A stretch of DNA of 64,000 nucleotides from Psammoneis japonica (GCA_008632985.1 QPGO01000001.1:62001-126000), one strand, 5' to 3'. Positions 3,030-64,000 are shown, numbered from the stretch's first letter. Translations and numbers: made by a program. The notes: generated by a model from the letters alone, not told the origin.

Positions 3030-4790
3030 CGAATGTGAGGCACGTGAAGGCTGAAAGCCTTGAAACGGATGCCAGCCTCATTGCAACGAATGTCTTTCGC
3101 CCAAAACCATGCACTGTCTCTGCCTGAATGAGTGTCAACAACAAACACGTCACCAATGTTGAATGGAATTCACCCAACCTGGTGCAAAAAGTGTTGAAAA
3201 ATCTTGTTGACATTCCAAATCACAATGCTCTCAGCTGCTTCTCAAAAGAAGCCAACAAAATTCAAAGCTCCCAACACCAATCCCGCGCTGCACATGTGTG
3301 CTCCACCACCTTGACATTGACAGGATTTTCTGAGCCAGTCATGTGTCCATCATCTAGCCGCACCACCAAATGAAGCTTTTGTGAGTCGATCGTGGCAAAC
3401 ACCTGATTTTGTGTTGCTTGAGCCACCATCGTCGGGGTGGAAGAACTTGAGATCTTCAACAGCGCAGCCACCGTTTCTGTTGATGCTGTTGAGACGTCCC
3501 TCCAGTGGCTTGTTCACATTGTGCCAAGAGATGAAGCACTCCCCAATCTGAGGGGATTCAGAAGTGTTCCTCTTTTTCCCATGACTCTTGAGCTCAAAAC
3601 GACTGGGAACGATCCAATTGTCTGACCACCGAACTTCAACATCAGGGATCCAGTTGCTGTGCGCTTGAATTGGATGCCTTTGCAGTCACACTTGATGTTC
3701 TTTGCACAGCATTTAGCGCCCATCTCTCCACCAGTCCACATCAACAATGAAATCCTGCAAGGGGAAAGATTTTGTGCCCATTTGAAGGAAAGACAGAAAA
3801 GCCTTGACAATCGCCTTGGAAATGGTCTTTTCAATCTTGGGGCGGACGGCCCCGACAAAGTTTCCAAGCTTCAGTTTGGCATCAGCCTTGCTCATTTTTA
3901 CCTTCTTCACATTGATGATGATTGGATTGACACAGCCACCGGCATGTCCATCACTCAGCTCTAGAACAAGGTCGAGCTTTGTGTGGTGCATCACCGCCAG
4001 GACACCGATCGTCGCAGCACCTTCCATGCAACAAAGCACTCACCAAGAAGAACAGTCATGGTGAACAATCTTTGCTCTTGCACAACATGGGCTGTTTGCA
4101 AGTGAGACAACTTTTTGTGAGAAAAGCTGTGTGTGATGACTCGCTTCTGCCAGAAGATCTGAAAGCACGTGAGGCAAATCATGCCACAGGTGGCGCACTT
4201 GTTTGATTTCTTCAATTTTAGATTTTGAAAATTTGGTGGTGGCCAGCAATTGACAACGAGCACATTTCACATCAACGCACTTTCATTGATGCACTTTTGC
4301 ACAAAATCTCTGCTCAACTGCCCCAGCTCAATGTTGTTTGTTCGTTGGTGTGCAAAACAGGAAAAGACAAGAGAGCTCACCGTCCAGCGGGGTGACAGCC
4401 AGTGGAAGCAAAAGATCTCATGGACCAGTCACTGCCCATGGATGCTGACAAGTGGCAAAGTTCCAATCAGGTGGCTGCCCGCGAGAAACAAAACGCCGCT
4501 CAGGAGGCAGCCCCCGCACCCAAGAAGAAAAGGACAAAAACCGCTCCCACCAAGTGCTTTTCCTTGCAGGAAGGACACGTTCTTTGACATGGATCACAGC
4601 ACCAAAAATCCCTTTGACTGCCGCCCCAAAACAATCCAGCATGTGATCAGGTGCCTGGAGCTGCTCCGTTTTGGTTTTTTGCTGGAGGGCGACTTTGATG
4701 GGTTTTGCCTCGATCAGCTGTTTGTCAAATCCTGGAAGAGAGCACGTCAGACACTGGCGGAGAGAGAGAGAGAGAGAGAGAAACAAAGAG
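3030..4790. other. TpA-depleted degenerate coding-like sequence of unidentified origin, probably a decayed transposon
   Basis: Very few TA; Cys/His-rich broken ORFs on both strands; no recognisable motif; ends in a (GA)n tract. Confidence 0.4.
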
Positions 4791-4828
4791 AGTGACAGAG
4801 GGCGATTGACCTGACGATTGGCCTGGAG

Positions 4829-5477
4829 TGCCACAAGTGGTTAACTTTTTCCGCACCCGCGGGACAAAATTTTTTGTCCCGGCATTTTCTCTAATTAACT
4901 CAAGTGCAATTGTCATTTCATTGTCATTTGCACATTTAATCACATCTTTCCTGGTGTCACATTATTTGAATGGAAAATGTTGCCTTTCCTCTTTGTCAGC
5001 AGCTTCAGAAGAATGACTCGGCTTAACACATTTCGACCCACAGACATTTAGTTTAGACACTTGTGAAGCAGGGTGCACAGCCCTGCTGACAAAACCCATG
5101 CATAATGCAAAACTTTGAACAGGACAGAAGATTTTGGAAATTGTCGCCAAAAGTCACTCTTCCATGGTGTCTACATACGTCCCCAGCATGCATGCGTCTG
5201 TCCGTCACTTTTTTGCACCCCCACTGCCCTGGTCCATTCAGATGTGTCATCCGGTTGTGTGCGTGGCACGGATCTCTTCGCAATTGTCCAAACTGCAGGT
5301 CCAAAGTCTGTCCTGGGGCTTGTAATGCCATCAGACAAAACTGTCACGGTCGAAACAGCACACATTTATTTGCATTTATTTGAGTGGAAAAGTTTTGTTG
5401 TTTGTGCCGGCATTCTTGTTTAAATGGGGCAATCGAGCGAAACCGCGTGGGTGCGGAAAAAGTCAACTCATTTGGCA
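4829..5477. mobile_element. Non-autonomous TIR element, about 650 bp
   Basis: Left TGCCACAAGTGGTTAACTTTTTCCGCACCCGCG is an imperfect inverted repeat of right CGCGTGGGTGCGGAAAAAGTCAACTCATTTGGCA; no clear TSD. Confidence 0.6.
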
Positions 5478-5659
5478 GACCGCACGTTTGCGTCGTTTGG
5501 CTCGTGTCATCGTGTGTGCTGTTTTTCGCGTTTGTTCCAAAAATCAAAAAAGTCTGTCTTTGTGCGATTCCGCCAACCCTGACCCACACTGTCACACACC
5601 ACACACCACACACGCATCGGCTCGCGGTCTTGAACAACCACAACCATGACGCTGACATC

Positions 5660-6010
5660 ATCAACAGCACTGCGAATCAATGACAACAACAATGACAACA
5701 ACGACACCATGACGTTTGGAGGATTGTCTGCCTCGTGAGCAGAACAAATCAATGTTGAGTGTTGTTTCGGATGCGTGCTGTGATTTGATTCTTTGTGTGT
5801 TGTGTTTCATGCGAGTCGAATGCTGCCGATTGAGAAAATCATTGACACGCTCCTGCTGCTGCTGCCGCATGCACGCCATTGTCATGGGACCGCCGCTCGG
5901 CTGCTGCTGCCAGTTTGTAAGAAAGAAACCGAGTGCTCGAGATGTGAAGGAGCATTTGTGTTGGAATTGTTGGAACCATGGTCACTCAAAATTAAAACCA
6001 ATGTCATGGC
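5660..6010 (+). pseudogene. IST1: Decayed copy of IST1 5'UTR, exon 1 and intron
   Basis: GAATCAATGACAACAAC...CCATGACGTTTGGAGGATTGTCTGCCTCGTGAGCAGAACAAATC aligns to the reverse complement of 28590-28665 (GAATCAATAACAATAAC...CCATGTTTGGAGGGTTTTCTGCC...CCTCGTGAGTAGAATATATC). Confidence 0.75.
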
Positions 6011-6199
6011 AAACAACTCACAGGCACGGTGGTGCGAGCGCAGCATGGTGCAGATGGATGCAACGAACGATTTGTTGCGATGCGATTTTTTTTGCATGTT
6101 CGAATGTTGTTTTGCGGTTGAAAAAAGGAAGAATGGCGACAAACTGTCTCCGTTGCGTTGAGTGGCAATGGATGGACATGTCTTGGTGTGGTTGGACGT

Positions 6200-6790
6200 G
6201 ATGGAACATGACGTCAATGGATTGACCAAATGCGCGCGGATCAAGTTTGCATCTTTTTAGCATGACGGCACAATGCACATGAAGCATTTCGGAAATCCTT
6301 TAAATGGCAAGGCCAAGCATGATTGCTTTGGGGATTCCATGGGTTTGGTCACTCGACATCCTTGAGTTGTTCCTCAAGTGTTGTTGGCATTGGACAAAGT
6401 GGAGACGTTGGTGACACGGTTTCGGCATTTGAGTGCAGTTTGTCAATGTCAAGATGGGAGACTCTTCTTCCAGGTGATTCAATCTTTGAGCATGTCGACA
6501 ATGTTGGGATTGTGTTTGCGGACATGCTGTGTCTCTCATGACAGTGGTTTGCTCCTGTTGGCAGGCACAGTGGCAAGGATCGTTTTGCTTTGTGACTTGT
6601 GCCGCTTGATGTCGTCGTGGAGTCAGCGTGGCCAAACTGCAACTTGGCAAAAACTTTGCTTGGTCAGTGTCGTTGAGCAGAAATGGAAACGGTTGTGGCA
6701 GTCGGAAATCATTGCCATGATGTAAATGGTGTGTGCCAAGTCGGTCAAGTTAGAATCTTTCAGTGCGACAGCAATGCAGACGATGTTTCC
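6200..6790 (+). pseudogene. Decayed fragments of an FG-GAP propeller gene (last blades, present twice)
   Basis: VAVGNHCHDVNGVCQVGQVRIFQCDSNADD versus LAVGSHYHDVNGLTSAGQVRIFQHDSNADE in the 9527-12133 gene; a second match CATGACGTCAATGGATTGACC...ATCCTTTAAATGGCAAGGC at 6207-6313. Confidence 0.8.
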
Positions 6791-8619
6791 ATTCCTGCAC
6801 TCTTGTCATTTTTCGCCCAGTTGCTTTTTTGGGGGTTTCTAAGGAACTCCAGACTGACTGCTCTCAACACTCTAGATGTTTCCATTCCCGCACTCTTTTC
6901 ATTTTTCGCCCAGATGCTTTTTTTGGGTTTTCTGAGCAACTCTGCTAGACCAACTGCTCTCAACTCTAGCCACAGCTCCAGCTGGCCCCATGTAAAGAGC
7001 AACATCATGTCCCCAGCTGCTGGCAGAGCCACTCTCTCAGATGACAACACAGAAGAGAGAGCACTTTAGAGAGACAACATGGAGGATGCACCACTGGTCT
7101 GGAGTGAATGAACTGTGGTCACCCTCTCCAGAGTTCCCAGTGTGGCAATGGTGGCCACAGCAACAATGCAGAAGCAGTGATTTGTCAAGGTGGCATGGAC
7201 ATCAGATGGAAGAAGCCACCTCCAATGTGTGACAAAGTGAGAAATGCTGGTCAGGTGGTTGTGCCTGTTCATTTTGGTGGCTTCTTCTTGCCTTTTGAGG
7301 CTGTTGCCTCTGTGCATGACAAGGCACTGGCACTCACCAAATACAATGCTTGTTGAGAGTGGCTGGTGCCTCAGCTGCAAAAGCTGGACTGTCCAAAAAA
7401 TGAAAAAGAAGTGCAGCAGGAATGGCTGTGTGCCACAGCAAGTTGGCACTTGCCATTCTCAGCTGCACTGCACCATTGCTTGTTTGTTGCCAATTGCCAG
7501 GAGGATTGAAGCAAGACAATGTGCTCCCCTGCATGACTTCTCCACCAAAACAACCATTTTGCTGAGTTTGCAAGCAGGGGGTGCGCACATTTCAACTTGT
7601 GTTTTTTGCCACAGTTCCCATTCAATTGACATTGTCAAATGCATTGAATGGCATCATGATTGATCAACAAAAGCCACAACAAATGGGGTGCAAATGTGGT
7701 GTGTTGCCCATTTTTGTTGCGGTTGGTTGATTGTGTGGCTCCACATGTCCCTGCACACAGAAGGTGCAGAAATGAACAAGAGGACAAGAGGGGAAGCATG
7801 GGAAATCCCGGTGTACAAAAATTTTCATTCATGTGTTGAGCACATGTGTGGCATGGTGTCATTCATGGGAATTCCCCAGGAAATCATGCTTCCCACAGAA
7901 ATTGCGGCAAAATGTTGCAACCCCGGGGAATTTTGGGGAATCCCACGGCAAAACCAAACTGGGGAGATGTGCAGTGTGCTGCTGGGTGGAAGAGGATGAA
8001 GTTGACAAAAGGCTCTTAAATTGCACAGGAAAGAAGCCAGAGGGTGGCAAATGGGAGCTTCAAGTGTGTTGAATGCAGTGCTGGTGTGGCTGTCAGAAGG
8101 ACACTTGGATGCATGATGGACATGCAAAGGCAAAGCAGCTGCATGGGAATGCTGCAAAAGCTTCAGCTTGCAATGTTCTGAGTGCTCCAACAGCAGAAGC
8201 AGCAGAAGCAGCATTGGCACCTGTCACATTTTTCAGGAGACAGTGCCTGGCTCAACATGGTCTGCCAAAGGTTCAGTGGAGTGAGTTTTGTTCATCTGAC
8301 AGATGATGAGTTGAAGCTGAAAGTTGACAAGAGGCTTTGCAAGGTGTGCAAAGCAAGGCTCTGGAGCCACAAAGAGGAGCAGCTGCCAGCACACCCTGCA
8401 AAAAAGGGCTGTTTGGTGTGGCTGTTTGCACCCAAGAACCTTTCAAGGCACTCCATCAAAGTTCTCAGTCTTGTGCCAATGACTGCACTGGTGCCATGCA
8501 ACCGGCCTTCTTCTGCATCCCAACCAAGAAAGCTTTGGGTGGGCACTTGATTTTTGAGCATGAGCCACTCAAGACAAAAGGGTTGCACCTGTCTTGATGA
8601 CAAATTCTTGCACTTGTTT

Positions 8620-8995
8620 GAAGTGGCAACAAGAATTGTTGGCAGAACACACAAAATTGTTGGAACACTCCAAAACATGTCCACTCGATTTGGTCTCATG
8701 TGTTTCCACACTGTTTTGTGGGCGTGCAACCATGTTGACATTGCAGAGATCCTGCTCATTAAAAAAAACAATTTCGTTCCAAATGCAGAAAAGACTTTGA
8801 ATTACGGTGCCCTTGGAAAAGATTTGCAGCTTGCAAAAACTGGATTGGAAGCCACACGTGTCTTGGTTGGACAGTTCTCTGGCACAAACGCGTGGCGGCA
8901 CCTGTTGGACATCATGCTGCACACAAGTGGCGGGTTGAATGGGCATGTTGGGAACTTGCTGTGGACAATCTTCAGGGCAAAAGAGCAAGAAATGT
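8620..8995 (+). pseudogene. IST1: Decayed, internally deleted copy of IST1 coding exon 2
   Basis: ELLAEHTKLLEHSKTCPLDLVSCVSTL / WACNHVDIAEILLIKK / AAPVGH versus intact ELLAERIKLLEHSKTCPPDLVSCVSTLIWACDYVDIAELPLIKK / AAPVGY; frameshifted. Confidence 0.92.
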
Positions 8996-9526
8996 GGCTT
9001 CTGTCAGGGGAGGGGGGGATGGGCAGCACGGTGGCACAAAAGTGTGGTGCAAGTCTTCCACGCTCCGCTTCATCATGCAGCACAGAGGGTGGGCTGCTGT
9101 GGCCGGAGCTTTGTCGCACTGGCACCAGATCTGCCAGATTCTGCCCAGCATCAGGAAACACATTCATGATCATTTTCACGATTGAATGAAATTGCATAAA
9201 AAGCCATTGTGATCACATGCTTGTGTGTTGACTGCATGAAACAATTGAACTCACCGTGCAAGTGCATGATGTGACGACAGACGAGTCGAGGTGGTCGCGG
9301 TTCATACAGCCGCGCCGCGGTTCATCAGTCTTGCTTCAAGTTATTCGCTGATGATCTATTGTTGGCAGATTTCCCGCGTTTCATCCGTTCTTGCTTCAAG
9401 TCCATCGCTTTCTGCGGATGCTCCAGCAGCTTTAACAGAACATGCAGTGGCAACTGCAAACTCTCACTCGTGCTGCTTGTGACCATTTGTCCACACATCT
9501 TTCTTATTGTAGAACTGCTTTCCCCC

Positions 9527-12133
9527 ATGATGAAGCGTTCGAGCGACGACGATGACGACATGTGCGACAGGCGTGGTGTTCGCGGCCGTGCCAGCAGCAG
9601 GAGCGGCAATTTGAAGGAAGATGAAACGGATAAGCAGTTACAAGAAATCGAAGAAACAATTCCTACGGGAGAAACGACCGCCGCTTCTTCTCATACGAAA
9701 AAGAAGAAGAGACAAACTGCTCATCGCCGCCGTCAAGAGCAGCAACAAGCAGAAGGAGGAAACTTGGCGGGTGAAGAACAAAAGGAAGAAGAACTGCTCG
9801 TTGAGTCGGATGATACTGATGAAGACATCGGCGCCACGACTGCCACAAACTTTACAAACGATGATGCAGGTGCGGGTACTGCTGGCGCGTTTGCCATTGG
9901 TCAAGGAGGACGACAGGTGCGAAGAGGAGGAAGTGACGCTGCTGACAATATTTCGCTCTTTTCAGAACTCGAAACGATACGCTCCAGTAGTTCAACGCCT
10001 CCTCCTCCAGAGGAGGCTGCTCGCGCTGACAATGATGGTGATGCTCCACTCGTTGTAGCTGAATTGGCAGATCAATCGGGACATGTTGCAGCGGAGGATT
10101 TCATAGCGCTTCAGGAACAAGTTACTAGTCTCCAAGCAGGAATTTACCAGGCACAGGCTGTACGGGCGGTTCCTGCTTCTGTTGATGGCGGACAGAATGA
10201 GCAAGTAAATGAAACAAGGAGAATTGATGGTGATGATGAGAGTGCTGAAGAGGAACCTCGTTACAAGCGCCGTCGCAGACGATTCATTATTCTGGTTGTT
10301 GTATTGTTGGCCATTGCTGCGATTGTCAGCATTCTTGCTGGAGTAAAGCCATGGGATAATGGTGGTGGAGGGAGCCCTGCTATTCCGCCTACTGTTGCAC
10401 CCGCTTCGGAGACCCAACAGGCCACCGGATTGGTGCTGAATTTGGTTGGTTTAGATACCGAGTTTGACGAAAGCGATTCCGAGTTGTGGGCCACAGCAAC
10501 CAAGGCGTTTGTCGAGGAATATTTTAACACTCCTAGTCGACGTGGTCTTGGCAGTCTCTTGATCCGCAATTTACAAGTATCGAACGTACAAGACGTTGAG
10601 ACGACACTGCAAGTTACTAACACTATTGTTGCTCAAGATGGTAATGGTGCAGAGCCCTCCCTTCAAGTCGTGTACAGCCAAGCCGTCACGTATGCTATTG
10701 ACACCAGCAACAACGATTACATTTCCATGGAAGTGTTGGCGACCGAGCCATTCAAGACATCAGCAAGGAGGTTGGCCTATGTGAATGACCTCCAGGTTGC
10801 GGGTACCAATGCCGGAAGCGATGTTTTCGACAATTTGATTGGCACTACCGAAGTATCGACCAATGCAGATACACTTGCTCCCGCCACTCCAGCTCCATCT
10901 CCTTCTCCAATCATTGTGCTTCCAAACGGTCCGTGGAATCCCGTCGGCCAAGTCTTGCACGGCAAAGCCGCAATTGATTGGTTTGGCAATTCCGTATCCT
11001 TGTCTCGTGATGGCAGTGTAATGGCGATTGGAGCGGATCAAAGGGGGTCTTCCAATCCCGGCTATGTTGTTGTGCAACGATACAATCTAAGTAACAAACA
11101 ATGGATACAAATTGCCCAAGAATTGGTGGGACAAGCCGGCGGCGACCGTTTTGGATTGTCAGTTTCATTAAATGGTGATGGCACGATTCTTACCGTTGGA
11201 GCTCCATGGAATTACAGTGGCGGAAAGTCTGTCGGTCAAGTTCGCGTTTTTGAGTACGACTCTGTATCGGATCGTTGGGTCCAACTCGGCAGCGACATTC
11301 TTGGACAAGACGCTCGTGACCAATTTGGGTTTTCCGTGTCGCTCTCGGACGCGGGAGACATTCTTGCCGTGGGAGCTGATTTGGATGACACGGAAAACGG
11401 CTCTGGTTCCGGATCGGTTCGATTGTTTCAATATAACCGCAGCTCTTCATCCTGGAACCAACTCGGGCAAACACTCATTGGACAAGCTACCGCTGATTAT
11501 TTTGGCATTTCTGTTTCCTTGAATGCGCAGGGAACCATTGTTGGCGTTGGAGCGCATTGGAATGATTCGGGCGGAAACAATGCTGGTCAAGTGTCGGTGT
11601 ATGAATACAATTCTGCCTCGTCAAAATGGGATCCATTGGGTGACTCAATCAATGGACAAGTCTTACATAGTTTGTTTGGATATTCTGTTTCTCTTGACGA
11701 CAGCGGTTTGATCGTTGCTGCAGGTGCACATGGTGGTAGCACCAACGAGAGAGTTTCGGTTTATTCATACGACCGCTCGACTTTGACATGGAATCAACAT
11801 GGCCAAACTCTCTTGACACAACAGCCTGGCAACAATTTTGGTTGGTCAGTGTCATTGAGTGGCAATGGAAATGTCCTGGCAGTTGGAAGTCATTATCATG
11901 ATGTCAATGGATTGACCAGCGCCGGTCAAGTCCGAATCTTTCAGCACGACAGCAATGCAGACGAATGGAAGCAAGTTGGTGATCCTTTAAATGGCGAGGC
12001 TGAAGATGACTATTTTGGAAGTTCCGTGTCGTTGTCGGCCGACGGGAGTGTCGTTGGAGTTGGTGCTCATGAAGCTGATATCAATGGCGACCGGTCCGGA
12101 TCCGCGTATGCATTCACAGTGAACAACAATTAA
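9527..12133 (+). CDS. Single-pass membrane protein: acidic N-terminus, TM helix, SEA-like stalk, 7-blade FG-GAP (integrin-alpha-like) beta-propeller
   Basis: Uninterrupted ORF; RRRRRFIILVVVLLAIAAIVSILAGV TM; seven FGxSVSLxxxGxxxAVGA repeats; first ATG of the ORF at 9527. The SEA-like call is from recall of pattern only. Confidence 0.9.
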   Translation: MMKRSSDDDDDMCDRRGVRGRASSRSGNLKEDETDKQLQEIEETIPTGETTAASSHTKKKKRQTAHRRRQEQQQAEGGNLAGEEQKEEELLVESDDTDEDIGATTATNFTNDDAGAGTAGAFAIGQGGRQVRRGGSDAADNISLFSELETIRSSSSTPPPPEEAARADNDGDAPLVVAELADQSGHVAAEDFIALQEQVTSLQAGIYQAQAVRAVPASVDGGQNEQVNETRRIDGDDESAEEEPRYKRRRRRFIILVVVLLAIAAIVSILAGVKPWDNGGGGSPAIPPTVAPASETQQATGLVLNLVGLDTEFDESDSELWATATKAFVEEYFNTPSRRGLGSLLIRNLQVSNVQDVETTLQVTNTIVAQDGNGAEPSLQVVYSQAVTYAIDTSNNDYISMEVLATEPFKTSARRLAYVNDLQVAGTNAGSDVFDNLIGTTEVSTNADTLAPATPAPSPSPIIVLPNGPWNPVGQVLHGKAAIDWFGNSVSLSRDGSVMAIGADQRGSSNPGYVVVQRYNLSNKQWIQIAQELVGQAGGDRFGLSVSLNGDGTILTVGAPWNYSGGKSVGQVRVFEYDSVSDRWVQLGSDILGQDARDQFGFSVSLSDAGDILAVGADLDDTENGSGSGSVRLFQYNRSSSSWNQLGQTLIGQATADYFGISVSLNAQGTIVGVGAHWNDSGGNNAGQVSVYEYNSASSKWDPLGDSINGQVLHSLFGYSVSLDDSGLIVAAGAHGGSTNERVSVYSYDRSTLTWNQHGQTLLTQQPGNNFGWSVSLSGNGNVLAVGSHYHDVNGLTSAGQVRIFQHDSNADEWKQVGDPLNGEAEDDYFGSSVSLSADGSVVGVGAHEADINGDRSGSAYAFTVNNN

Positions 12134-28396: not shown

Positions 28397-28440
<44 letters not shown>

Positions 28441-28791: not shown

Positions 28792-28794
<3 letters not shown>

Positions 28795-49345: not shown

Positions 49346-49409
49346 GCACAGGAGAGAGCATGCCTGTGGGATGGACTGCTTGCCAATTGATCCAATTGTT
49401 CCAAGTCCT

Positions 49410-50184: not shown

Positions 50185-50403
50185 GGTGAAACTCCCTTGC
50201 CACGCTCGGAGCTTCGCGTGATGACTCGTTTCCTGCGCTTTATTTTTCTGACTCGAAACACGACTCACTCAAGCAGCGATTGAATGCCAACCATAAGTTA
50301 AAGTTGAACGATCAGATTATGGTCATTCAAGTGCAGGAAAGAAATGAATTGGATTTGAAATTGTTTTCGAGCCGATTCGATTCATTTCGCTGGCACGTCG
50401 TCC

Positions 50404-52501: not shown

Positions 52502-52891
52502 GACGCGTTCCAGGTCTAGGTGGGACCTCGCACTACTGAACTGTGACATCGATAGTTTTTTGAGTCTCGTCGTATGTCGCGCACGTAGATTTCTACGTGA
52601 TTTTTTCGATATTTTGTGTCATTTTAAAGTTCACTTATTGAGCGATCCGTCCAACAACTTTTGACATTTTTTGTTATAGCGCGATTCTTTAATGTATTAA
52701 GAATCGCGTAGGGCAGGCGAAGTTGCAAAAACGTCGAGTGGTAAGAGGCATAATTGTACCACAAACTTGGCCGTTTATTTGATGTTGAAGATAAATGTGT
52801 CCATTAATTAAATTCTCGTACTACGGAGCTCGCACGTAGAATTCTACGGGCCCAATGTCACACGGAGTCCCACATAGGGCTGGAACGCGTC
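52502..52891. mobile_element. MITE, 390 bp, AT-rich, unmutated
   Basis: TIR GACGCGTTCCAG..CTA.GTGGGAC; 4-bp TSD GCCA (47361-47364 and 52892-52895) once the Harbinger is removed. Confidence 0.82.
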
Positions 52892-52994
52892 GCCAACCAC
52901 ATTGAGTGCTCTCAGCAAAGTCCACCCAAGGAGCACAGCAAAATGGCCAGAGCTCTCAGCTGACTAATGTTTTTTTTTCACACTTGGGGTGCTC

Positions 52995-53725
52995 TTCCAG
53001 TCTCACCCTTGGCGTGGTGTGAAGTGACATGGGGGCAACAACTGCACCAGAACAGCCTTGCAAAACTCAACCACAGTTCTTGAAGTGTTGCCTGGGGTCC
53101 ACCAAAGACCCCTGCACCCTCTGGATGTGGTTGTTGGGTTCTTGGTTGGTGCATTGATGGCATCCTTCCACTGCGGAGTTGGGGTTTCAAGTCTCACCCT
53201 TGGTGTGGTCAGAAGTGACACAGGGCCCCACAGCTTAGCCAGGGTGGCCTTGCAACTCTCAAAATCACAGCTCTCAAAGTGTCCCCTGGGGTCCGCCAAA
53301 TGCCCTCAATGCCCTCTGACTGCAGTTGTTGGATTGGTTGGTGCACTTGTCATGGTGTCCTTTCACTGTGGACTTGGGATTTCAAGTCTTGCCCTTGGCG
53401 AGGTGTGAAGTGGCATGGGGCCACAGCTGCGCCAGGGTGGCCCTTGCAGCTGTCAACCCACAGTTCTCAAAGTGTTGCCTGGGGTCCACCAAAGGCACCC
53501 AGGGCCCTCTGGCTGCAGTTGTTGGGTCAGTTGGTGCATTCATGGTGTCCTTTCACTGTGGAATTGGGGTTTCAAGTCTCACCCTCATTGTGGTGTAAAG
53601 TGACTGTGGCAACAACTGTGCAAGAGTGGCCTTGAAAGTCTCAACCACAGCTCTTGAAGCATGCCTGGGGTCCACCAAAGACCCCCAATGTGCTCTGGCT
53701 GCAGTTGTTGGGTTGGTTGGTGCAA
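52995..53725 (+). repeat. Tandem array, about 4 units of 186-194 bp, related to the 33.6-36.3 kb array
   Basis: CCTGGGGTCC at 53091, 53285, 53478, 53664; shares CTGCAGTTGTTGGGTTGGTTG, GTGTCCTTTCACT and TTCTCAAAGTGTT with the larger array. Confidence 0.88.
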
Positions 53726-54019
53726 TCAATCTGTGTGGAGTGACAGCTGCTGCGGCCATGACTTTCTCCACTCGCTCTCATCAACAGACATCTTTTGCTG
53801 CAAATTCCGCAGCAAATGGCGGCTCCTCTCTGTGGCAGCAAACAATGGAAACCACCATTCTGTGGCAGTCATCTAGAGCAAATGCACAGAACTCATCAGT
53901 CGTTTGGATTTGATGGTTTGACACATTTGACGCACTGGCACTCCTGGTGGAAAACTCAACACGACCCACAACAAAACAACCCCGATCCGCACCCTTCTCT
54001 GTGACCCCCTCTGCATTGT

Positions 54020-54330
54020 CATTCAAGCATGACACAGCCTTGATGTTTCCTGCACTCTGTCAAATTTGCACTCCAGGGTGTCTGGAAGAGAGTGTCAGGG
54101 CCAACTGTCAATGCTAAAAACTGAGTCTAGACGAGAACACTCACCTGCGTCAGAGTGGGAACAGTGCGAGGCACCCTCCCAGCAAGTGACATGTTGTCAT
54201 TTTCAAGCATGACAGACCCTTGACATTTCCTTCACTCTTTCAAATTCGCACTCTGGGGTGCATGAAAGAGAGTGTCAGAGCCAACCAACAACAGAAAAAC
54301 CAAAACTCAACGAGAACACTCACCCACTGC
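54020..54330 (+). repeat. Tandem duplication, period 180 bp
   Basis: TTCAAGCATGACA...GAGAGTGTCAG.GCCAAC...ACGAGAACACTCACC at 54022 and 54202. Confidence 0.8.
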
Positions 54331-54636
54331 GGTAAAAAAAAGGTTGTGTTCTGTTTTTTCCCAGCAACTCGGTCATTGTTTTACCCAAAATGCCTCACCC
54401 AGTTAATTGGTCCATCAAAAAATTCAGATCCAGCAAATTGTTCCAGGAAAAACGCAAGTTGCTTGGGAAAATCAACGGATCACTGGATCTTTCGCGTGCA
54501 GTGATGTTGTGTTGGATTTTTCAGTGGATTTTTTCAGCGAGGGCGTTGATTGGTGATTGGAATTGCAGGACTCAAAAAGTGGAGACAGACAGACTCACGG
54601 TTTTTTGACAAATTTTGGCAATAGCGAGAGATGCCG

Positions 54637-58584: not shown

Positions 58585-61500
58585 TGTTGGTAACGGCTGG
58601 TGCTGAGCCAACCGTTGTGACGTGTTATCGGAGGGAAGCGTTGGATTTCCCTCCAATGGCGCTCACTTGTTACGAGTAGTTGTAACAGGCCTAAGAGCAT
58701 CGTTAGATCGTTAGATTTTTTCTCATTCATTGGGTGCATGACTTCCAACGCGTCAGTGAAAATCCTGCCATTGACGGTTTGGATCAGGCGCGTTTTCTCG
58801 ATGCGCTGTCTACTGCATTGTCGAGGGCCGACATTTGCAGCCAGATGAGGGATCAATCCGAGTCCATTGCTCGTGAGGCGTCCCCTGGACTCTTGGAGAG
58901 CGAAAAGGTCTGGGTAAAATGGAGCACCGCTTTCAAGAACATGCTCAGCACGATGCTGGGAGTCGACGGCGTTCCGTTGATTTGTGTCATGCGCGAGAAC
59001 GAGGAGCCCGAGCCTGAAGGGCATGAGACTTTTATGCAGAAGTCGGTTGCATGCGCTCCACTCGAGGGTCCAGCTTTCGAAGCTGATTCTCGCACCGTTG
59101 GCCAACTGATCGTTTCGTTCACGAAAGGCACCCCAAGCGAGCAGTGGATCAAAGAGCACCACAACAGCCAGAACGGTCGTCTCTGCTGCGAATCTTTGGA
59201 GAACCACTGTCAGGGCGAGGGCAATGCCACCCGTTGTATCTCAGAAGCTGAGCGTTTGGAAAACACTCTACATTGCAGGAGTGAACGCTCCATGACGTTC
59301 GAAATGTTCGTGAACAAGCTTCAGGAGATGTTCAACATTTTCGAAGAGAATGATGAACCCAAGACGGAGGCTCAGAAGCTGCGATTGCTGTTCGACAAGG
59401 TGCAACACCAGCAGTTGCAGAACGTGGTAGAGACCCTGAAGGTGCAGAATGAGTTCGGAGGAGGGACCAGTTTTGCTGCAGCGTGCAACCATCTTGCCGC
59501 TAAAGTCGCCACTCTCCCGGAAACAGTTGCGCACCGTCGTGCGATTTCCTCTGTTGCGTCCGGCGTCAGCAAGGAAGGTGATTCCATTTACAAAGAAGAT
59601 GGGTCCATTGACACCGGATTTCACAAAAATTGGCATCAATTGAGCAAGGAAGACAAGAAGAAGGTCATGGACGAGCGTGTGCATTTGGGACTCAAGAAGA
59701 GGCCGGGTAACCCGAAGTGCCGCGCTGCATCCGTCAGATCGCTTAAAAAGAAGAATCGGAAGCTGACGTCCCAGCTTGAGCAAGCGAACCGCACTGTTTC
59801 TTCCTTGGAGACCACTGCCGGCACCGATTCCGGAAAGGTTGGTGCAGGAACTGGCGGTCAAGGCGGCAACAATGCCGGAGACGCATTTGGGGGATGCCAG
59901 GAGCGTCAGCAACGCAGCTGACTCCTGAGCTGGACCCTGTTCTGTAGCCTCATCCAATTTGCATTGTGGCCACTTCATTGGGGCGGGGGCCAGCCGCATC
60001 GTTCGAAAGAAACGTTGGTTCATGGGGACTGTCGTTGCATTTGTGAAATTACTGCTTCCACACGACGAGTCTCTGCGGCACGGACTAACACGCGTGCCAC
60101 TCACGTCCAAACAGACGATCAGGTAAAGCATGGGCGACTAGAATTGGACTCACATGCTGACACTGCTGTTTTTGGTTCTAACTTTACCCTCTCAGGTTAC
60201 ACTGGCAGAGAATGCGACGCATCACCTTGTGACGAGGGATGCGAAGCTGTCAAGAGTGTCCCAATCGCATCGGCGGCCACTGCGTGGACCTCACCGGCGA
60301 CGGGAGCAACGCACATCCTGGTGTTCCATGAAGGACTTTGGATGGCAGATTCCATGGAGAATTCTCTCCTTGACCCGAATCAGATGAGGCATTTCGGTGT
60401 CACGGTTCAGGATGACCCCTGTTCCGAGTCGCCGTTGCATGTCCTTGCGGAGGACAAGGGATTCATGCTACCCCTTGAGTTGATGGGCACTGGCATCATT
60501 GCGGCAACTCGGACCCCCACTGAAAGGGAGCTCCAAGAGTGCCCACACATCCAGTTGACCTGCCAACAACCTTGGGATCCACACAACGTCAAGTTTAAGC
60601 AGTCCAGACCTTGACGTTCTGTGGAGGAGGAAATGGAGTTGATTCGGTCGGTCGCAACTGTTCGGTCAAGCCCTGGCTACGCGTTCAGTCAGGATCCTGA
60701 TTGTGGCAACCCTCAGACCGGGGACTGTTGTGACAGGAGACTCATCTGCGGTGTGGACCAAGTTCAATCAAGATTGACAGCGTCAGTCCAGGTGGAAGCG
60801 GATGTTCAGATCGCGGCCACTGAGACGATCGGCTCGGAACTCGAAGACGTGCCGTCCCCGAAGACTTTCATGTCCAAGGAACGGCACAGTTCTGTCACCG
60901 CTGTTGACTTGAGTGAGCGCTGGGGCATTGGATTGAAACAAGCGACATCAACATTGAAGAAGACCACCCAGAAGCTAGTGAGATCGGCGCTTGTGCCCCT
61001 GGCCAGGCGTTGTCGAGCGGATCGGATGTTCACGAAGCCGAAACTTCGAGGCGAGTGGGCGACTGATGCGGTCGACGGCAAAGTGGNNNNNNNNNNNNNN
61101 NNNNNNNNNNNNNNNNNNNNNNNNNNNNNNNNNNNNNNNNNNNNNNNNNNNNNNNNNNNNNNNNNNNNNNNNNNNNNNNNNNNNNNNNNNNNNNNNNNNN
61201 NNNNNNNNNNNNNNNNNNNNNNNNNNNNNNNNNNNNNNNNNNNNNNNNNNNNNNNNNNNNNNNNNNNNNNNNNNNNNNNNNNNNNNNNNNNNNNNNNNNN
61301 NNNNNNNNNNNNNNNNNNNNNNNNNNNNNNNNNNNNNNNNNNNNNNNNNNNNNNNNNNNNNNNNNNNNNNNNNNNNNNNNNNNNNNNNNNNNNNNNNNNN
61401 NNNNNNNNNNNNNNNNNNNNNNNNNNNNNNNNNNNNNNNNNNNNNNNNNNNNNNNNNNNNNNNNNNNNNNNNNNNNNNNNNNNNNNNNNNNNNNNNNNNN

Positions 61501-64000
61501 NNNNNNNNCTTGGCGAAACTGTTGACATCTCAGAGTGCCTTGACTTCGGATTCTACGATTGGGTTTGGCACAGGGAGAATGCTGGTCTTGGTGACCAGAA
61601 GCTCGGTAGGTGGCTCGGAGTGTCCCACCGGATTGGCAGTCTAATGTCATGTTACGTGTTGACGCAAACCGGTCGTGTCATGTCGCGAACATCTGTTCAG
61701 CGAGTCACCAACTTGGAAGCTGGCACGCAAGAGAATCAAGATCGTTTCAAGGCTTTTGACGAGGAGATCCAGCGCAGACTTCGTGACCAAGAGTTTCCCA
61801 AAGACGAAGAGCGCAGGATCAGCCCCGAAGACTGGAAGGACTGTCTTGGGTACGACGACGAATTCCTCGACGAGTGCGATCGCGTCATCAGTTCTGAAGA
61901 TGTGTCAAACAAGGACGACGACAAGAAAGACGAGGAAGCCTCCCCGGAAGCGGCGGATTGGGGTCATCTCAATGTGGAGTTGGCTTTGCCGAGAGATGAT
62001 GATGGTCCCGAGTTCGCGCGTGTGACGAAGAGGTTGAGGGATGCGAATGGCATTCCCATTGGGACAGCCAACGACAACCCAATCCTAGATGCTCGAATGT
62101 GTCAGGTGGAGCATCCCGATGGTCACACTGCAGCACTTTCAGCTAACTCTATTGCCATGAACATGTTCGCACAGATTGACGAGGACGGAAATCGGCATGT
62201 TCTGTTTGACGAGATTGCAGACTTCCGTGCGAATGGGGACGTCCCGGAATCCGATTTCTTTGAAACTGAGCAAGGCAACAAGAGGCGGCGCAGGACCACG
62301 AAAGGATGGGAACTCTTGTTCCAATGGAAGGACAGCAGCACTGCTTGGGTTGACCCAAAGGACGCGAAGGAAGGATTCCCTGTCCAGGTCGCCGAGTTCG
62401 CCATCCAACACAAGATCTCGAAGGAGCCGGCGTTTGCTTGGTGGGTTCCGCACTTAATGAGGACCCGCAAGCGTTCTATTGCGAAGGTCAAGTCAAAGCA
62501 TTGGTTGAGAACCCATGAATTTGGCACACGAATTCCCAAGACTGTGAAGGAGGCACTGGAGCTCGATCGTGCGAACGGCAACACCTTGTGGCATGACACC
62601 ATTTGCTTGGAAATGAAGAATGTTCGAGTTGCGTTCGACAAGTTCGAGGGGGACGAAACGGAGCTGCCTCCTGGGCACCAACAAATCGATTGTCACATGA
62701 TTTTTGACATCAAGTTGGGAGAGAACTTTTGGCGCAAGAGCAGGATGGTTGCGGGTGGTCACATGACCGACACCCCAACTGCCATTGCCTGCTCCTCAGT
62801 TGTTTCCAGGGATTCGGCAAGGATTGCCCTTGCACTTGCCGTGCTTGATGACTTGCAAGTCTTTGCCTGCAACATCCAGAATGCCTGCTTGACAGCGCCG
62901 TGCCGAGAGAAAATTTGGACTCGTGCCGGTGAAGAGTTTGGCGCGGAACGCGGTGAGATTGTGATTGTAGTCAGGGCACTCTACGGATTGAAGAGCTCCG
63001 GCGCGGCATTCAGGGCCTTCCTGGCGGAGACGCTTTGTGATCTAGGATGCAAGCCTGGCAAGGCTGATCCCGACGTTTGGATGAGGCCAGCAGTGAAGCC
63101 AGACGGATTCGAGTGCTACGACCACATCTTGGTGTACGTCGACGACTTGCTGTCGATTAGTCATGAGCCGATGAAGACTGTGGATGGTGTCAAGTCGAAG
63201 TTCAAGCTCAAAGACGATAAAGCAGCGGAACCCGAATCCCACTTGGGCGCCAAATTGTCGAAGATGGACCTTGCTGACGGCACCACCTGCTGGACGATGT
63301 CAGCAGAAGATTGCTGCAAGGCGGCGGTCCGGAATGTTGAGGACAAATTGGCCAAGGAAGGAAAACGGCTGCCGAGCAAAGCATGCACACCTTTAAGTGG
63401 CGGATGCAAGCCGGAGTTGGACACTTCGGGCGAACTGGATGCAGAAGGCCTCAACCACTGCCAAGAGCTGATTGGCGTTTTGATTTGGGCCGTGGAATTG
63501 GGTGGGGTCGATGTCATTTTGGAAGTGTCAAATGTGTCGGCTCACCTTGCCTTGCCGCGCATTGGTCACTTGGAACAGGCATTGCATGTCTGTGCATGCC
63601 TCAAACAGGTCCCAAAGCGCCGGGTGGCGTTCGATCCTACGCATCCGGTCATCGACGAGTCTAGGTTCAAGGAGTGCGATTGGTTTGACTTCTGCTGAGA
63701 CGCGCAAGAGGCGATTCCCCCCAACATGCCACCACCTCGAGGTGACGTTGTGTCTGCTCATTGTTTCGTGGATGCCAACCATGCTGGTGACGCATCAACT
63801 CGCCGCAGTCATGCAGGCATTCTGACATTCCTGTGCCGAGCACCCATCATCTGGTGTTCGAAGAGACAGAACACCATGGAGACCAGTGCTTTTGGCGCCG
63901 AGATCGTGGCACTCAAGGTCGTGGTGGAATTTATTGAAGGTCTGAGGTGCAAGCTTCGAATGTTTGGAGTTCCTGTTGAAGGTTCTACAAACGTGTTCTG
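58585..64000 (+). mobile_element. Ty1/copia (CoDi-like) LTR retrotransposon, 5'-deleted, hypermutated, runs off the window
   Basis: TG-starting LTR-like stub 58585-58720; gag 58721-59921; protease LELDSHADT; integrase WATDAVDG...LGRWLGVSHRIG; RT KSRMVAGGH, ALYGLKSSG, YVDDLL; RNase H FVDANHAG...SKRQNT.ETS.FGAE. Order PR-INT-RT-RH. In-frame TGA at 60612 and 63696; N gap 61087-61508. Confidence 0.96.

What the first reader, a model, noticed from the sequence alone, without database searches (positions are those of the whole stretch)
3030..64000. Candidate undescribed genome-defence system: repeat-targeted A:T to G:C hypermutation at TpA (a 'reverse RIP')
Seen: more than half of the window, in sharply bounded blocks, is almost free of TpA and rich in TG/CA, while the genes between blocks have ordinary TpA and Tyr. 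Wherever a parent can be compared, TA has become TG or CA. Both outcomes occur on one strand, so both strands are hit. Retrotransposons, DNA transposons, tandem arrays and intron-containing host-gene duplicates are all affected, so it acts on DNA rather than being RNA editing copied by reverse transcriptase. Established: fungal RIP makes C to T changes and creates TpA; 5mC decay removes CpG only; ADAR hypermutation is strand-biased. None of these gives this pattern. Inference: a heterochromatin- or repeat-directed mutator, for example a TadA/ADAT-like DNA adenine deaminase, deamination of a modified adenine, or Pol-eta-type (WA to WG) error-prone repair in methylated DNA. I know of no description of this in diatoms but could not search the literature. 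No gene for the mutator is identifiable in this window.
Basis: partly seen in the sequence, partly recalled or inferred. Interest (0 to 1): 0.96.

Follow-up and report, generated by a model that had tools for sequence, protein, structure and literature searches.

The report
TpA-erasing hypermutation of diatom repeats
In this diatom DNA, silenced transposon and satellite sequences have had almost every TA dinucleotide turned into TG or CA, a mirror image of fungal repeat-induced point mutation that none of my literature searches found described.

Summary
36.6 of 64 kb lies in sharply bounded blocks with TpA observed/expected of 0.03-0.18, against 0.5-0.76 in the gene-bearing blocks between them; TG and CA are both enriched.

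The direction is shown. At 30 Tyr columns conserved among copia homologues, two copia remnants in the window read Tyr 5, Cys (TGY) 18, His (CAY) 5, Phe 2, while other conserved residues in the main copy are kept within the homologues' range. In low-block copies of host genes and of a 60-bp array, TA is kept at 1 of 22 sites, against 22 of 55 in a normal paralogue pair.

Both strands are hit. The target is 5'-TA with a strong flank effect: ATA/TAT is at 2% of normal density, GTA/TAC 8%, CTA/TAG 19%, TAA/TTA 24%. CpG decay is separate and slower.

Contigs from public runs carry the depleted sequence. 80 related copia loci have normal TpA. There is no leakage across block edges. A MITE of about 1,000 copies and a multi-copy gene family are untouched.

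Ten literature searches found no description. The enzyme, the timing and in-situ action are inferred.

The parts
3101..4800 (.). Low-TpA block; no recognisable coding content.
   Evidence: 5 TA in 1,700 bp, TA o/e 0.04, CG 0.47, TG 1.65, CA 1.53; no Pfam family.
5401..9300 (.). Low-TpA block. It holds degraded copies of host-gene fragments: FG-GAP-like at 6207-6347 and 6601-6784, and Ist1-like at 8628-8974. It abuts the FG-GAP gene that starts at 9275.
   Evidence: TA o/e 0.07; homology to 11772-12028, 55414-55670 and 27764-28167. Purine/pyrimidine identity is 86-92% against 71-80% nucleotide identity; parental TA reads TG or CA in the copy.
16701..18000 (.). Low-TpA block, also CpG-poor. Homologous in inverted orientation to part of block 28701-30900.
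   Evidence: TA o/e 0.05, CG 0.15; 16691-16956 matches 30199-30590 (minus strand) at 90-94% purine/pyrimidine identity.
24001..26000 (.). Low-TpA block with a 181-bp tandem repeat at 24178-24670.
   Evidence: 3 TA in 2,000 bp, TA o/e 0.03; tandem array, 2.7 copies.
28701..30900 (-). Low-TpA block containing an old copia fragment at 29187-29627 on the minus strand.
   Evidence: TA o/e 0.09, CG 0.29; tblastn E = 1e-27 to a copia homologue; both conserved Tyr columns read Cys; other conserved columns kept at 40 of 82.
32201..39000 (.). Low-TpA block that includes a satellite array of about 187 bp (33620-36275, 14 monomers).
   Evidence: TA o/e 0.06, CG 0.33.. TG/CA is the dominant two-position polymorphism among monomers, at 11 column pairs against 3 or fewer for any other pair.
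39401..48500 (.). Largest low-TpA block. It holds tandem arrays at 40127-40676 and 46538-47123, and a mutated copy (47601-47768) of the 60-bp array whose normal-TpA counterpart lies at 52083-52260.
   Evidence: TA o/e 0.07, CG 0.58; of 7 parental TA in the 60-bp array, the copy has TG 4, CA 1, TT 1, TA 1; an X1 contig over 45422-45929 reads TA or CG where the window reads CA or TG.
48801..51700 (.). Low-TpA block with nearly normal CpG.
   Evidence: TA o/e 0.11, CG 0.80. X1 contigs cover 48923-49363 (5 differences) and 51258-51698 (13 differences).
52901..54600 (.). Low-TpA block with a 193-bp satellite (52995-53724) related to the 187-bp array.
   Evidence: TA o/e 0.09, CG 0.26.; an X1 contig is identical to the window over 54132-54664 (533 bp, TA o/e 0.16).
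58707..63998 (+). Copia-type retrotransposon polyprotein in one reading frame with three in-frame stops, interrupted by an N gap at 61087-61508. It is TpA-depleted but keeps its CpG. It is the youngest and best-polarised target in the window.
   Evidence: RVT_2 domain, YVDD motif intact; 1,605 homologues, the best at 62% identity; conserved Tyr columns read Cys or His; other conserved columns kept at 326 of 377. TA o/e 0.16 and CG 0.91, against TA 0.49-0.90 in 80 related loci.
52491..52896 (.). Unaffected comparator: a MITE-like element with terminal inverted repeats at 52502-52526 and 52867-52891. It is TA-rich and very high copy, and its end coincides with a low-block edge.
   Evidence: word depth of 62,000-66,000 in the two bins spanning 52005-53338, against about 65 for single-copy sequence; the block 51701-52900 has TA o/e 0.76.
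9275..12133 (+). Unaffected comparator and parent: an FG-GAP repeat gene with normal TpA. Its paralogue lies at 55309-58038 on the minus strand.
   Evidence: in the normal-versus-normal control pair (83% identical), TA is kept at 22 of 55 sites; 55340-56673 has a word depth of 1,800-2,673, so it is a multi-copy family, yet its TpA is normal.
27416..28504 (-). Unaffected comparator and parent: the Ist1 gene with normal TpA.
   Evidence: Ist1 domain, E = 1.9e-45; the best named relatives are diatoms; parent of the degraded copy at 8620-8970.

Best explanation
CLAIM. A real, DNA-level, element-delimited hypermutation in a diatom. In transposon-derived and satellite DNA, the A:T pair of 5'-TA-3' steps is converted to G:C on either strand, so TA becomes TG or CA.

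TARGET. The conversion is almost saturating at TA followed by a pyrimidine (equivalently, preceded by a purine on the other strand). The order is TAT > TAC >> TAG, TAA. Adenines followed by T outside TpA are hit weakly.

RELATION TO CpG DECAY. Ordinary CpG-to-TpG/CpA decay of methylated repeats is superimposed and is slower.

EFFECT. The process never turns a sense codon into a stop. It cripples proteins through missense changes: Tyr to Cys or His, with Ile, Leu and Val codons that contain TA also at risk. Functionally it works like fungal RIP with reversed chemistry.

SHOWN: the signature, its polarity, both strands, the flank dependence, the step-like edges, independence from CpG loss, and speed relative to other decay.

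INFERRED: that it acts on chromosomal DNA in situ; that it is enzyme-driven, by hydrolytic deamination of adenine to hypoxanthine or by a thymine modification that mispairs with G (sequence alone cannot tell the two apart); and that it serves as genome defence.
For: MAGNITUDE AND EDGES. Low blocks hold 173 TA where about 1,420 would be expected. The edges are step functions with no gradient.

POLARITY FROM COPIA. At 30 conserved Tyr columns in two copia remnants the window reads Y 5, C 18, H 5, F 2. With the 60 best homologues, 21 columns read Y 3, C 11, H 5, F 2. Each of the 120 homologues keeps at least 75% of its conserved Tyr.

SPEED. Non-Tyr conserved columns are kept at 326 of 377 (0.865). 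The homologues range from 0.828 to 0.960, and 25 of 120 are lower than the window.

POLARITY FROM HOST-GENE AND ARRAY COPIES. TA is kept at 1 of 22 sites, against 22 of 55 in a normal paralogue pair; Fisher p = 0.002.

NOT A PROPERTY OF THE ELEMENT LINEAGE. 80 related copia loci have TA o/e of 0.49-0.90, against 0.16 in the window.

BOTH STRANDS. At 37 unselected sites with a known TA ancestor the window reads TG 19, CA 8, TA 5, other 5 (leaving out the 9 X1 sites).

FLANK RULE. Survival in all 16 NTAN contexts fits a product of per-strand terms. It runs from 0.57 for TTAA to 0 for ATAT. Trinucleotide density ratios, low over normal, are 0.02, 0.08, 0.19 and 0.24. The TA that remain sit in the resistant contexts.

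SEPARATE FROM CpG. The copia has CG o/e of 0.91.

NOT ASSEMBLY-ONLY. X1 contigs at a word depth of about 65 carry the depleted sequence. One 533-bp contig is identical to the window although that stretch is about 14 TA short of normal density.

A CLOSE RELATIVE IS LESS MUTATED. It differs from the window at TA or CG sites in 19 of 26 listed places.
Against: Only one window was available and no genome is held.

Most low blocks have no recognisable origin.

A MITE of about 1,000 copies with some 55 TA, and a multi-copy FG-GAP segment, are untouched. So neither copy number nor position inside a low region is enough to trigger the process.

The complete lack of leakage would also fit mutation before integration.

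The X1 contig differences run almost one way: 19 places where the window has the derived state against 1 the other way. An artefact in the assembly would also give that pattern. Only 40 of 1,948 difference rows were shown, and the library type of X1 is not on record.

The test between the two mirror-image flank models is weak (13 against 6), and 9 of those sites were chosen because they differ.

TA is the least conserved dinucleotide even in the normal control pair (0.40).

No candidate enzyme is in hand.
Confidence: 0.6

Rival explanations
1. Editing before integration. An adenine deaminase with a 5'-U/T preference acts on single-stranded retroelement nucleic acids: on the genomic RNA (giving TA to TG on the sense strand) and on minus-strand cDNA (giving TA to CA). 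The low blocks would then be dead-on-arrival retroelement copies, a restriction in the style of APOBEC or ADAR and not a chromosomal process.
For: The edges are step-like with no leakage. The only protein domain recognised in low blocks is copia. The MITE, a DNA element, and the multi-copy host gene are untouched. Sense-strand outcomes dominate at Tyr codons: Cys 18 against His 5.
Against: Conversion reaches over 90% of susceptible sites on both strands, which is far above anything one replication cycle is known to give (recalled), and a copy that damaged could not go through further cycles on its own. TpA loss is graded with age: 0.16 in the copia that still has its CpG, 0.02-0.07 in CpG-poor blocks. 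Satellite arrays, host-gene fragments and the copy of a foldback/MITE-like 60-bp array are hit as well. The excess of Cys over His is equally predicted by the TA-pyrimidine flank rule.
Confidence: 0.15
2. Sequencing or assembly artefact. A modified base at TpA, together with 5mC at CpG, in heterochromatin is miscalled as TG/CA in the reads behind the assembly, and repeats escaped polishing.
For: At 19 of 26 listed places in 44181-45873, X1 contigs read TA or CG where the window reads CA or TG, and only 1 place runs the other way. X1 holds just 0.65 of the sampled words of 24001-33000.
Against: The X1 contigs are themselves TpA-poor: 0.28 over 45422-45929. One contig is identical to the window over 533 bp of low block, and others differ at only 5 and 13 places. 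TG and CA outcomes interleave within tens of bases, whereas a strand-specific miscall would give runs. The copia frame stays open over 5.3 kb without a frameshift. The degraded copies also carry indels and transversions. A 422-N gap with an estimated size suggests a scaffolded assembly (inference).
Confidence: 0.07
3. Passive decay. TpA is intrinsically unstable, and once selection is lost in junk DNA it drifts to TG/CA, perhaps helped by GC-biased gene conversion. No targeted process would be involved.
For: TA is the least conserved dinucleotide even between two normal paralogues (kept at 0.40), and it changes mostly to CA or TG. The low blocks are slightly richer in G+C: 0.50 against 0.47.
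Against: Non-coding DNA in the normal blocks keeps its TpA, at o/e 0.65-0.77 over 26-28 kb and 52 kb. The edges are steps. The copia lost about 80% of its TpA while keeping its CpG and 86.5% of other conserved residues. GC-biased conversion would not single out TpA or depend on the flanking base.
Confidence: 0.05
4. Error-prone repair synthesis of the Pol-eta type (WA to WG) in methylated or heterochromatic DNA, with no base-modifying enzyme involved.
For: TpA is the hottest WA motif for Pol eta (recalled). A repair patch could be confined to marked chromatin (inference).
Against: ApA is not depleted: o/e 1.28 in low blocks against 1.16 in normal, with AAA/TTT at a density ratio of 0.99. Saturation at over 95% of TAT and TAC sites would need very many rounds of an enzyme that errs about once per hundred bases (recalled).
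Confidence: 0.05

Closest known systems
Repeat-induced point mutation (RIP) of ascomycete fungi
   Same: Hypermutation by transitions, confined to particular DNA segments with sharp limits. Both strands are hit. It has a dinucleotide preference, leaves a strong dinucleotide-bias footprint, and inactivates transposons. A short element appears to escape here (the 410-bp MITE); RIP also spares short repeats (recalled).
   Different: The chemistry and direction are opposite. RIP makes C:G to T:A and creates TpA from CpA/TpG; here A:T becomes G:C and TpA is destroyed. RIP creates stop codons, whereas this process cannot turn a sense codon into a stop. No leakage into flanks is seen here. High-copy sequences are spared. 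The host is a diatom, not a fungus. Dependence on a RID-type enzyme and premeiotic timing could not be tested.
ADAR hyper-editing of double-stranded RNA, fixed in genomes through retrotransposition
   Same: A-to-G changes with a preference for a 5' U/T neighbour (recalled). Clustered, heavy editing of repeat-derived sequence.
   Different: Fixed ADAR editing gives A to G on one strand of an element. Here TG and CA outcomes interleave in one copia (Cys 18, His 5) and in gene fragments and arrays. The 3'-neighbour preference here is T/C, whereas ADAR prefers G (recalled). ADARs are known only from animals (recalled).
APOBEC3-type hypermutation of retroelement cDNA
   Same: An enzyme-driven transition hypermutation that kills retroelements, with a dinucleotide context preference.
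   Different: APOBEC deaminates cytosine (G to A on the plus strand) and is strand-specific. Here adenine/thymine pairs at TpA are changed on both strands.
5-methylcytosine decay of methylated repeats (CpG to TpG/CpA)
   Same: It gives the same products (TG and CA), hits both strands and acts on silenced repeats. It is present here too: CG o/e is 0.52 in the low blocks, and parental CG reads CA or TG in the copies.
   Different: It cannot remove TpA. TpA loss here precedes CpG loss: the copia has TA o/e 0.16 and CG o/e 0.91.
TadA/ADAT2-3 tRNA adenosine deaminases and their derivatives
   Same: The natural target adenine follows a U (U33-A34 in tRNA), and bacterial TadA reads U-A-C (recalled). 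That matches the 5'-T-A-pyrimidine preference found here. A trypanosome ADAT2/3 has been reported to deaminate DNA (recalled).
   Different: These are RNA enzymes, and no natural one is known to mutate chromosomal DNA at adenine. No such gene is in the window. TAT is hit more than TAC here. This is a lead, not a membership claim.
Very-short-patch repair and CTAG depletion in enterobacteria
   Same: A known case in which TA inside a motif is converted to CA/TG, there by a repair system that resolves T:G mismatches towards C:G (recalled).
   Different: CTAG is one of the most resistant contexts here, surviving at 0.37. That process is genome-wide and not confined to blocks.

Membership tests
Fungal RIP | C:G to T:A transitions, mostly at CpA, which create TpA | tested here: not met
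   The direction is the reverse. Parental TA reads TG or CA in the copies. Tyr codons read TGY or CAY. TA o/e is 0.08 in the low blocks.
Fungal RIP | Acts on duplicated DNA above a length and identity threshold | tested here: inconclusive
   Affected blocks include repeats: copia, satellites and gene-fragment copies. A MITE of about 1,000 copies (about 410 bp) and a 30-40-copy FG-GAP segment are spared, and some low blocks are now near single copy. No genome is available to count copies properly.
Fungal RIP | Needs a RID-type cytosine methyltransferase homologue and acts before meiosis | not testable with these tools
   No genome is held and no experimental data are available.
5mC deamination decay | Loss of CpG to TpG/CpA only | tested here: not met
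   CpG loss is present (CG o/e 0.52) but cannot account for TpA loss. The copia has CG 0.91 with TA 0.16.
ADAR-type RNA hyper-editing fixed by reverse transcription | A to G on one strand of the element only | tested here: not met
   Cys (sense-strand A to G) 18 and His (antisense) 5 occur in the copia remnants. TG 19 and CA 8 occur at the 37 unselected polarised sites.
ADAR-type RNA hyper-editing fixed by reverse transcription | Restricted to sequences that pass through RNA and cDNA | tested here: inconclusive
   Satellites, host-gene fragments and a copy of a foldback/MITE-like array are affected, but they could be parts of retroelements. No transposase was found in the low blocks.
APOBEC-type cDNA editing | Cytosine deamination (G to A on the plus strand) in a set dinucleotide context | tested here: not met
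   The changes are at A:T pairs of TpA.
Pol-eta WA-to-WG mutagenesis | A is mutated after either T or A | tested here: not met
   AA o/e is 1.28 in low blocks against 1.16 in normal, and AAA/TTT has a density ratio of 0.99. In the polarised pairs, A to G occurs at 5'-AA in 15 of 154 sites and at 5'-TA in 17 of 45.
TadA/ADAT-like adenine deaminase acting on DNA | Target adenine preceded by T/U | tested here: met
   TpA is hit far more than other adenine contexts. This is a resemblance in target only.
TadA/ADAT-like adenine deaminase acting on DNA | A deaminase-fold gene of that clade present and responsible | not testable with these tools
   No deaminase domain was found in the window and no genome is held. 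Passages of PMC3239186 list stramenopile-restricted deaminases fused to SAM and Tudor domains, or to a Rossmann domain, as possible nucleic-acid editors. These are leads only.

The most novel reading that the evidence does not exclude
Diatoms, or at least this lineage, have a RIP-like genome defence built on the opposite chemistry. An enzyme marks silenced mobile DNA and converts the A:T pair at 5'-TA-pyrimidine steps to G:C on both strands. It could be a natural DNA adenine deaminase or a thymine modifier. It acts in episodic, possibly strand-coordinated bursts that may also hit CpG: in the listed differences from the X1 contig, 15 of the 19 TA- and CG-derived changes lie on one strand. This would be the first natural DNA-level A-to-G hypermutation system, and a possible source of a natural double-stranded-DNA adenine editor.
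Probability: 0.4. Interest if true: 0.95.

Novelty: new variant of a known kind. Interest (0 to 1): 0.85.

Why it matters
Targeted hypermutation of repeats is known only as cytosine deamination (fungal RIP, APOBEC on cDNA) or as RNA editing (ADAR). A chromosomal process that erases TpA by A:T-to-G:C change would be a new chemistry for genome defence, in a major group of marine primary producers.

- It would change how diatom repeats must be annotated. Mutated elements keep long open frames, lose Tyr, and escape domain searches.
- It would bias estimates of repeat age and of base composition.
- It points to an enzyme of practical interest, since the adenine base editors in current use rely on laboratory-evolved TadA (recalled).

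The footprint is simple to screen for in any genome: TpA o/e below 0.2 together with a TG/CA excess, ATA/TAT nearly absent and TTAA/CTAG spared.

Tried and rejected
WHOLE GENOME: not held. Genome-wide spectra, LTR-pair tests and a search for the mutator were therefore impossible.

RNA HOLDERS: no RNA holder was listed for 24001-33000.

RFAM AND tRNA SCANS of the window: nothing.

PFAM on low-block ORFs: only RVT_2, plus weak low-complexity hits. 44 of the 194 ORFs of 70-119 aa were not scanned.

HOMOLOGUES WITH THE SAME SIGNATURE: none among the 120 listed of 1,605, and none among 80 metagenome loci. Both sets are biased towards intact elements.

PURINE/PYRIMIDINE RECODING of the window against itself: it confirmed the known parent/copy pairs and linked blocks 16.7 kb and 30.2 kb. 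It did not reveal a longer mutated copy of the MITE-like stretch.

SATELLITE MONOMERS: TG/CA dimorphism dominates, but the sites cannot be polarised, because both CG (residual in 4 columns) and TA (residual in 1 column) were ancestors.

COMPOSITION AGAINST COPIA RELATIVES: too noisy at 40-60% identity to decide between a sense-strand bias and the flank rule.

LOCAL TG-VERSUS-CA OVERDISPERSION: modest (chi2/df 1.47 in low blocks against 1.14 in normal) and confounded by ancestral composition.

Protein comparison on the Ist1 copy failed because the copy has stops. The nucleotide alignment was used.

LITERATURE: ten searches found only fungal RIP, APOBEC and unrelated papers. PMC9258296 (passages) was irrelevant. 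Subscription journals and supplements were not searched.

REJECTED READINGS:
- Foreign or viral origin of the low blocks, because host-gene copies and copia polarity show in-lineage change.
- Selection against TpA, because pseudogenes and satellites are affected while intergenic DNA next to genes is not.

Full report
OBSERVATION. A 1-kb dinucleotide scan and a two-state segmentation on 100-bp TpA counts show that 36,600 of the 64,000 bases lie in 11 blocks. In these, TpA observed/expected is 0.03-0.18 and TG and CA are both 1.3-1.9. The blocks between them have TpA at 0.5-0.76 and TG/CA near 1.2. Pooled, the low blocks (36,178 bp) hold 173 TA where the density of the normal blocks (1,017 TA in 25,900 bp) predicts about 1,420. 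CpG is also low in most low blocks (0.52 pooled) but near normal in 48801-51700 and 58801-64000. The edges are steps: normal DNA within 150 bp of an edge has 5.3 TA per 100 bp, and low DNA within 150 bp inside has 0.60. The window has one N run, at 61087-61508.

WHAT THE BLOCKS ARE. The normal blocks carry ordinary genes: a DEAD_2 helicase, two FG-GAP repeat proteins, SNase, tripeptidyl-peptidase II and Ist1. The named relatives of Ist1 are all diatoms, such as Seminavis, Grammatophora, Mayamaea, Odontella and Nitzschia, at up to 76% identity.

In the low blocks the only recognisable protein is a copia-type polyprotein. It reads as one frame over 58707-63998 with three in-frame stops, an RVT_2 domain and an intact YVDD motif. 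An older copia fragment lies at 29187-29627 on the minus strand. The rest is made of:
- satellite arrays of about 181-193 bp;
- short degraded copies of the window's own FG-GAP and Ist1 genes;
- a copy of a 60-bp array (47601-47768);
- sequence with no match.

No transposase was found in 107 ORFs of 120 aa or more, or in 150 of 194 ORFs of 70-119 aa. Because two of the three stop codons contain TA, the low blocks are full of long meaningless ORFs on both strands.

POLARITY. The copia gives the cleanest test. Its RT-RNase H part (729 aa) has 1,605 homologues, the best at 62% identity; one named source is Fragilaria crotonensis.
- Aligned with the 60 best homologues, 21 columns have Tyr in at least 70% of them. 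The window keeps Tyr in 3 and reads Cys (TGY) in 11, His (CAY) in 5 and Phe in 2. Every other residue type with more than 10 conserved columns is kept at 70-95%.
- Using all 120 listed homologues through tblastn, and adding the integrase part and the second fragment, 30 conserved Tyr columns read Y 5, C 18, H 5, F 2.
- Each of the 120 homologues keeps at least 75% of its conserved Tyr.
- The window's copy keeps 326 of 377 non-Tyr conserved columns (0.865). That is inside the homologues' range of 0.828-0.960, and 25 of the 120 are lower. So this copy lost about four fifths of its TpA while otherwise looking like an ordinary member of the family.
- Its CpG is intact (o/e 0.91).
- 80 related copia loci fetched from metagenome contigs have TA o/e of 0.49-0.90 (median 0.71), against 0.16 here.

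SECOND LINE OF POLARITY. In three parent/copy pairs within the window (FG-GAP, Ist1 and the 60-bp array), 22 parental TA read TG 11, CA 5, TA 1 and other 5 in the low-block copy. Between the two normal-TpA FG-GAP paralogues, which are 83% identical, TA is kept at 22 of 55 sites (Fisher p = 0.002). Parental CG also goes to CA or TG in the copies (11 of 38), as expected for methylated repeats.

BOTH STRANDS AND CONTEXT. TG and CA outcomes interleave within tens of bases in the copia and in the gene copies. One-strand editing is therefore excluded.

Survival of TA depends strongly on the flanking bases. Relative to normal-block density:
- TTAA survives at 0.57;
- CTAA and TTAG at 0.40 and 0.37, and CTAG at 0.37;
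- GTAA and TTAC at 0.21 and 0.13, and CTAC and GTAG at 0.15 and 0.14;
- ATAA and TTAT at 0.06 and 0.05;
- CTAT at 0.03 and GTAC at 0.025;
- ATAC and GTAT at 0.01;
- ATAG and ATAT at 0.

All 16 values fit a product of two per-strand terms that depend on one neighbour. For the adenine's 3' base, survival is about 0.75 (A), 0.61 (G), 0.16 (C) and 0.07 (T). This fit is my own arithmetic on the figures.

Survival alone cannot separate this model from its mirror image, in which a purine two bases 5' of the adenine matters. Outcomes at informative polarised sites favour the 3'-pyrimidine model by 13 to 6 (9 of those sites were chosen because they differ). The excess of Cys over His at TAY codons (18 to 5) points the same way.

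At the trinucleotide level, the density ratios of low over normal blocks are:
- ATA/TAT 0.02, GTA/TAC 0.08, CTA/TAG 0.19, TAA/TTA 0.24;
- CpG-containing trinucleotides 0.46-0.69;
- AAT/ATT 0.74 and GAT/ATC 0.81;
- all others 0.92-1.86, with CAG/CTG, GCA/TGC and CAC/GTG the most enriched.

In the polarised pairs, A to G at adenines that are not in TpA but are followed by T occurs at 18 of 82 sites, against 26 of 318 in the control (p = 0.001). So the 3'-T preference extends weakly beyond TpA. ApA is not depleted (o/e 1.28 against 1.16). Small islands with some TA inside the low blocks are clusters of resistant contexts.

Sequence alone cannot say whether the adenine or the paired thymine is the base that is chemically changed.

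INDEPENDENT READS. Three runs of one sample hold parts of the stretch: X1 holds 0.65 of the sampled words and X2 holds 0.23. Their contigs were laid on 44001-64000 at 80% likeness. X1's single-copy word depth is about 65, which indicates deep, accurate reads; the library type is not on record.

Contigs covering low blocks confirm the depletion:
- one is identical to the window over 54132-54664 (533 bp, TA o/e 0.16, about 14 TA short of normal density);
- others differ at 5 of 441 and 13 of 441 places.

Over 45422-45929 the only contig laid (depth 65.9) differs at 24 places. Of the 26 difference rows listed for 44181-45873:
- in 9 the window has CA or TG where the contig has TA;
- in 10 the window has CA or TG where the contig has CG;
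- 1 runs the other way;
- 6 are of other kinds.

That contig is itself TpA-poor, at 0.28 against 0.08 in the window and 0.53 in normal blocks. I read it as a less mutated allele, strain variant or close paralogue. Its one-way pattern, and the skew of 15 'CA' to 4 'TG', are unexplained and could mark an episodic, strand-coordinated burst. Only 40 of 1,948 difference rows were shown, so this rests on a small, non-random sample. The same table shows that the in-frame stop at 63696-63698 is TGA where two contigs read CGA, and that 19 contigs read CA at a TA which the window retains at 62477.

WHAT IS SPARED. The normal block 51701-52900 sits between two low blocks. It contains a TA-rich, MITE-like element (about 52491-52896) with terminal inverted repeats at 52502-52526 and 52867-52891. 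Word depth is 62,000-66,000 in the two bins spanning 52005-53338, roughly a thousand copies. Its end coincides with the low-block edge. The FG-GAP gene segment 55340-56673 has a depth of 1,800-2,673 and normal TpA. Conversely, the low stretches 44001-46001 and 50004-52004 have depths of only 85-156. Present copy number therefore does not predict the state, and lying inside a low region is not enough either.

EXPLANATION. The best reading is a targeted, enzyme-driven conversion of the A:T pair at TpA steps to G:C in silenced mobile and satellite DNA, on both strands, saturating at susceptible contexts, with slower CpG decay on top.

It works like RIP with reversed chemistry. Because TA to TG or CA cannot turn a sense codon into a stop, it disables proteins through missense change and leaves long open frames.

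The chemistry is inferred. One route is adenine deamination to hypoxanthine, which would match the U-A context of TadA/ADAT enzymes (recalled). The other is a thymine modification that mispairs with G; oxidised thymines are mutagenic in that direction, and 5hmU in dinoflagellates is enriched at TpA (recalled). Passages of PMC3239186 describe stramenopile-restricted deaminases fused to SAM and 1-22 Tudor domains, and a Rossmann-fused clade, which the authors suggest may edit nucleic acids. These are leads only.

Rivals are scored in their own section: editing of retroelement RNA and cDNA before integration (0.15), a base-calling or assembly artefact (0.07), passive decay (0.05) and Pol-eta-type repair (0.05).

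NOVELTY. Ten full-text searches combining diatom, TpA or TA dinucleotide, RIP-like, hypermutation, A-to-G, deaminase and genome defence returned only fungal RIP, APOBEC and unrelated papers. Subscription journals, supplements and the genome paper of this organism, if there is one, were not seen. The concept (hypermutation of repeats) is known. The chemistry, target motif and host lineage are not, so I file it as a new variant of a known kind and not as a member of RIP, whose defining mutation type was tested and not met.

Noticed in passing
window 52491-52896: A MITE-like element with 25-nt terminal inverted repeats (52502-52526 and 52867-52891) and subterminal palindromes. Word depth in the X1 bins spanning 52005-53338 is about 1,000 times single copy. 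It is probably a very abundant, recently active non-autonomous DNA transposon, and it is not TpA-depleted.
   Followed up: partly
window 52076-52490 and 47601-47768: An array of 15/60-bp units built on the core GTTGAAAG, with inverted copies at both ends of an AT-rich stretch (foldback-like). A TA-to-TG/CA mutated copy of the array lies in a low block.
   Followed up: partly
window 44181-45873: The listed differences from the X1 contig are strand-skewed. 15 of the 19 TA- and CG-derived changes appear as CA on the plus strand, for both kinds of site. This may be strand-coordinated co-mutation of TpA and CpG, but the sample is small.
   Followed up: partly
window 9275-12133 and 55309-58038: Two inverted paralogous FG-GAP/Kelch-like genes about 43 kb apart, 83% identical over 1.2 kb. 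Contig depth suggests they belong to a family of about 30-40 similar copies.
   Followed up: no
window 33620-36275, 52984-53728, 46535-47131, 40097-40676, 24179-24670: Several satellite arrays with units of 179-193 bp. The arrays at 33.6 kb and 53 kb are related to each other (67-78% identical), which suggests a nucleosome-length satellite family.
   Followed up: partly
window 63696-63698: One of the three in-frame stops of the copia is TGA where two X1 contigs read CGA. It is therefore a CpG transition and not a product of the TpA process.
   Followed up: yes
window 643-1398: An ORF with a PDZ domain directly followed by the DEAD_2 helicase domain (XPD/Rad3-like), an unusual combination if it is a single exon.
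   Followed up: no
window 57782-58162: A 206-bp tandem duplication (93% identical) in the 5' part of the FG-GAP gene region, next to a simple repeat at 57965-58006 where contigs break.
   Followed up: no
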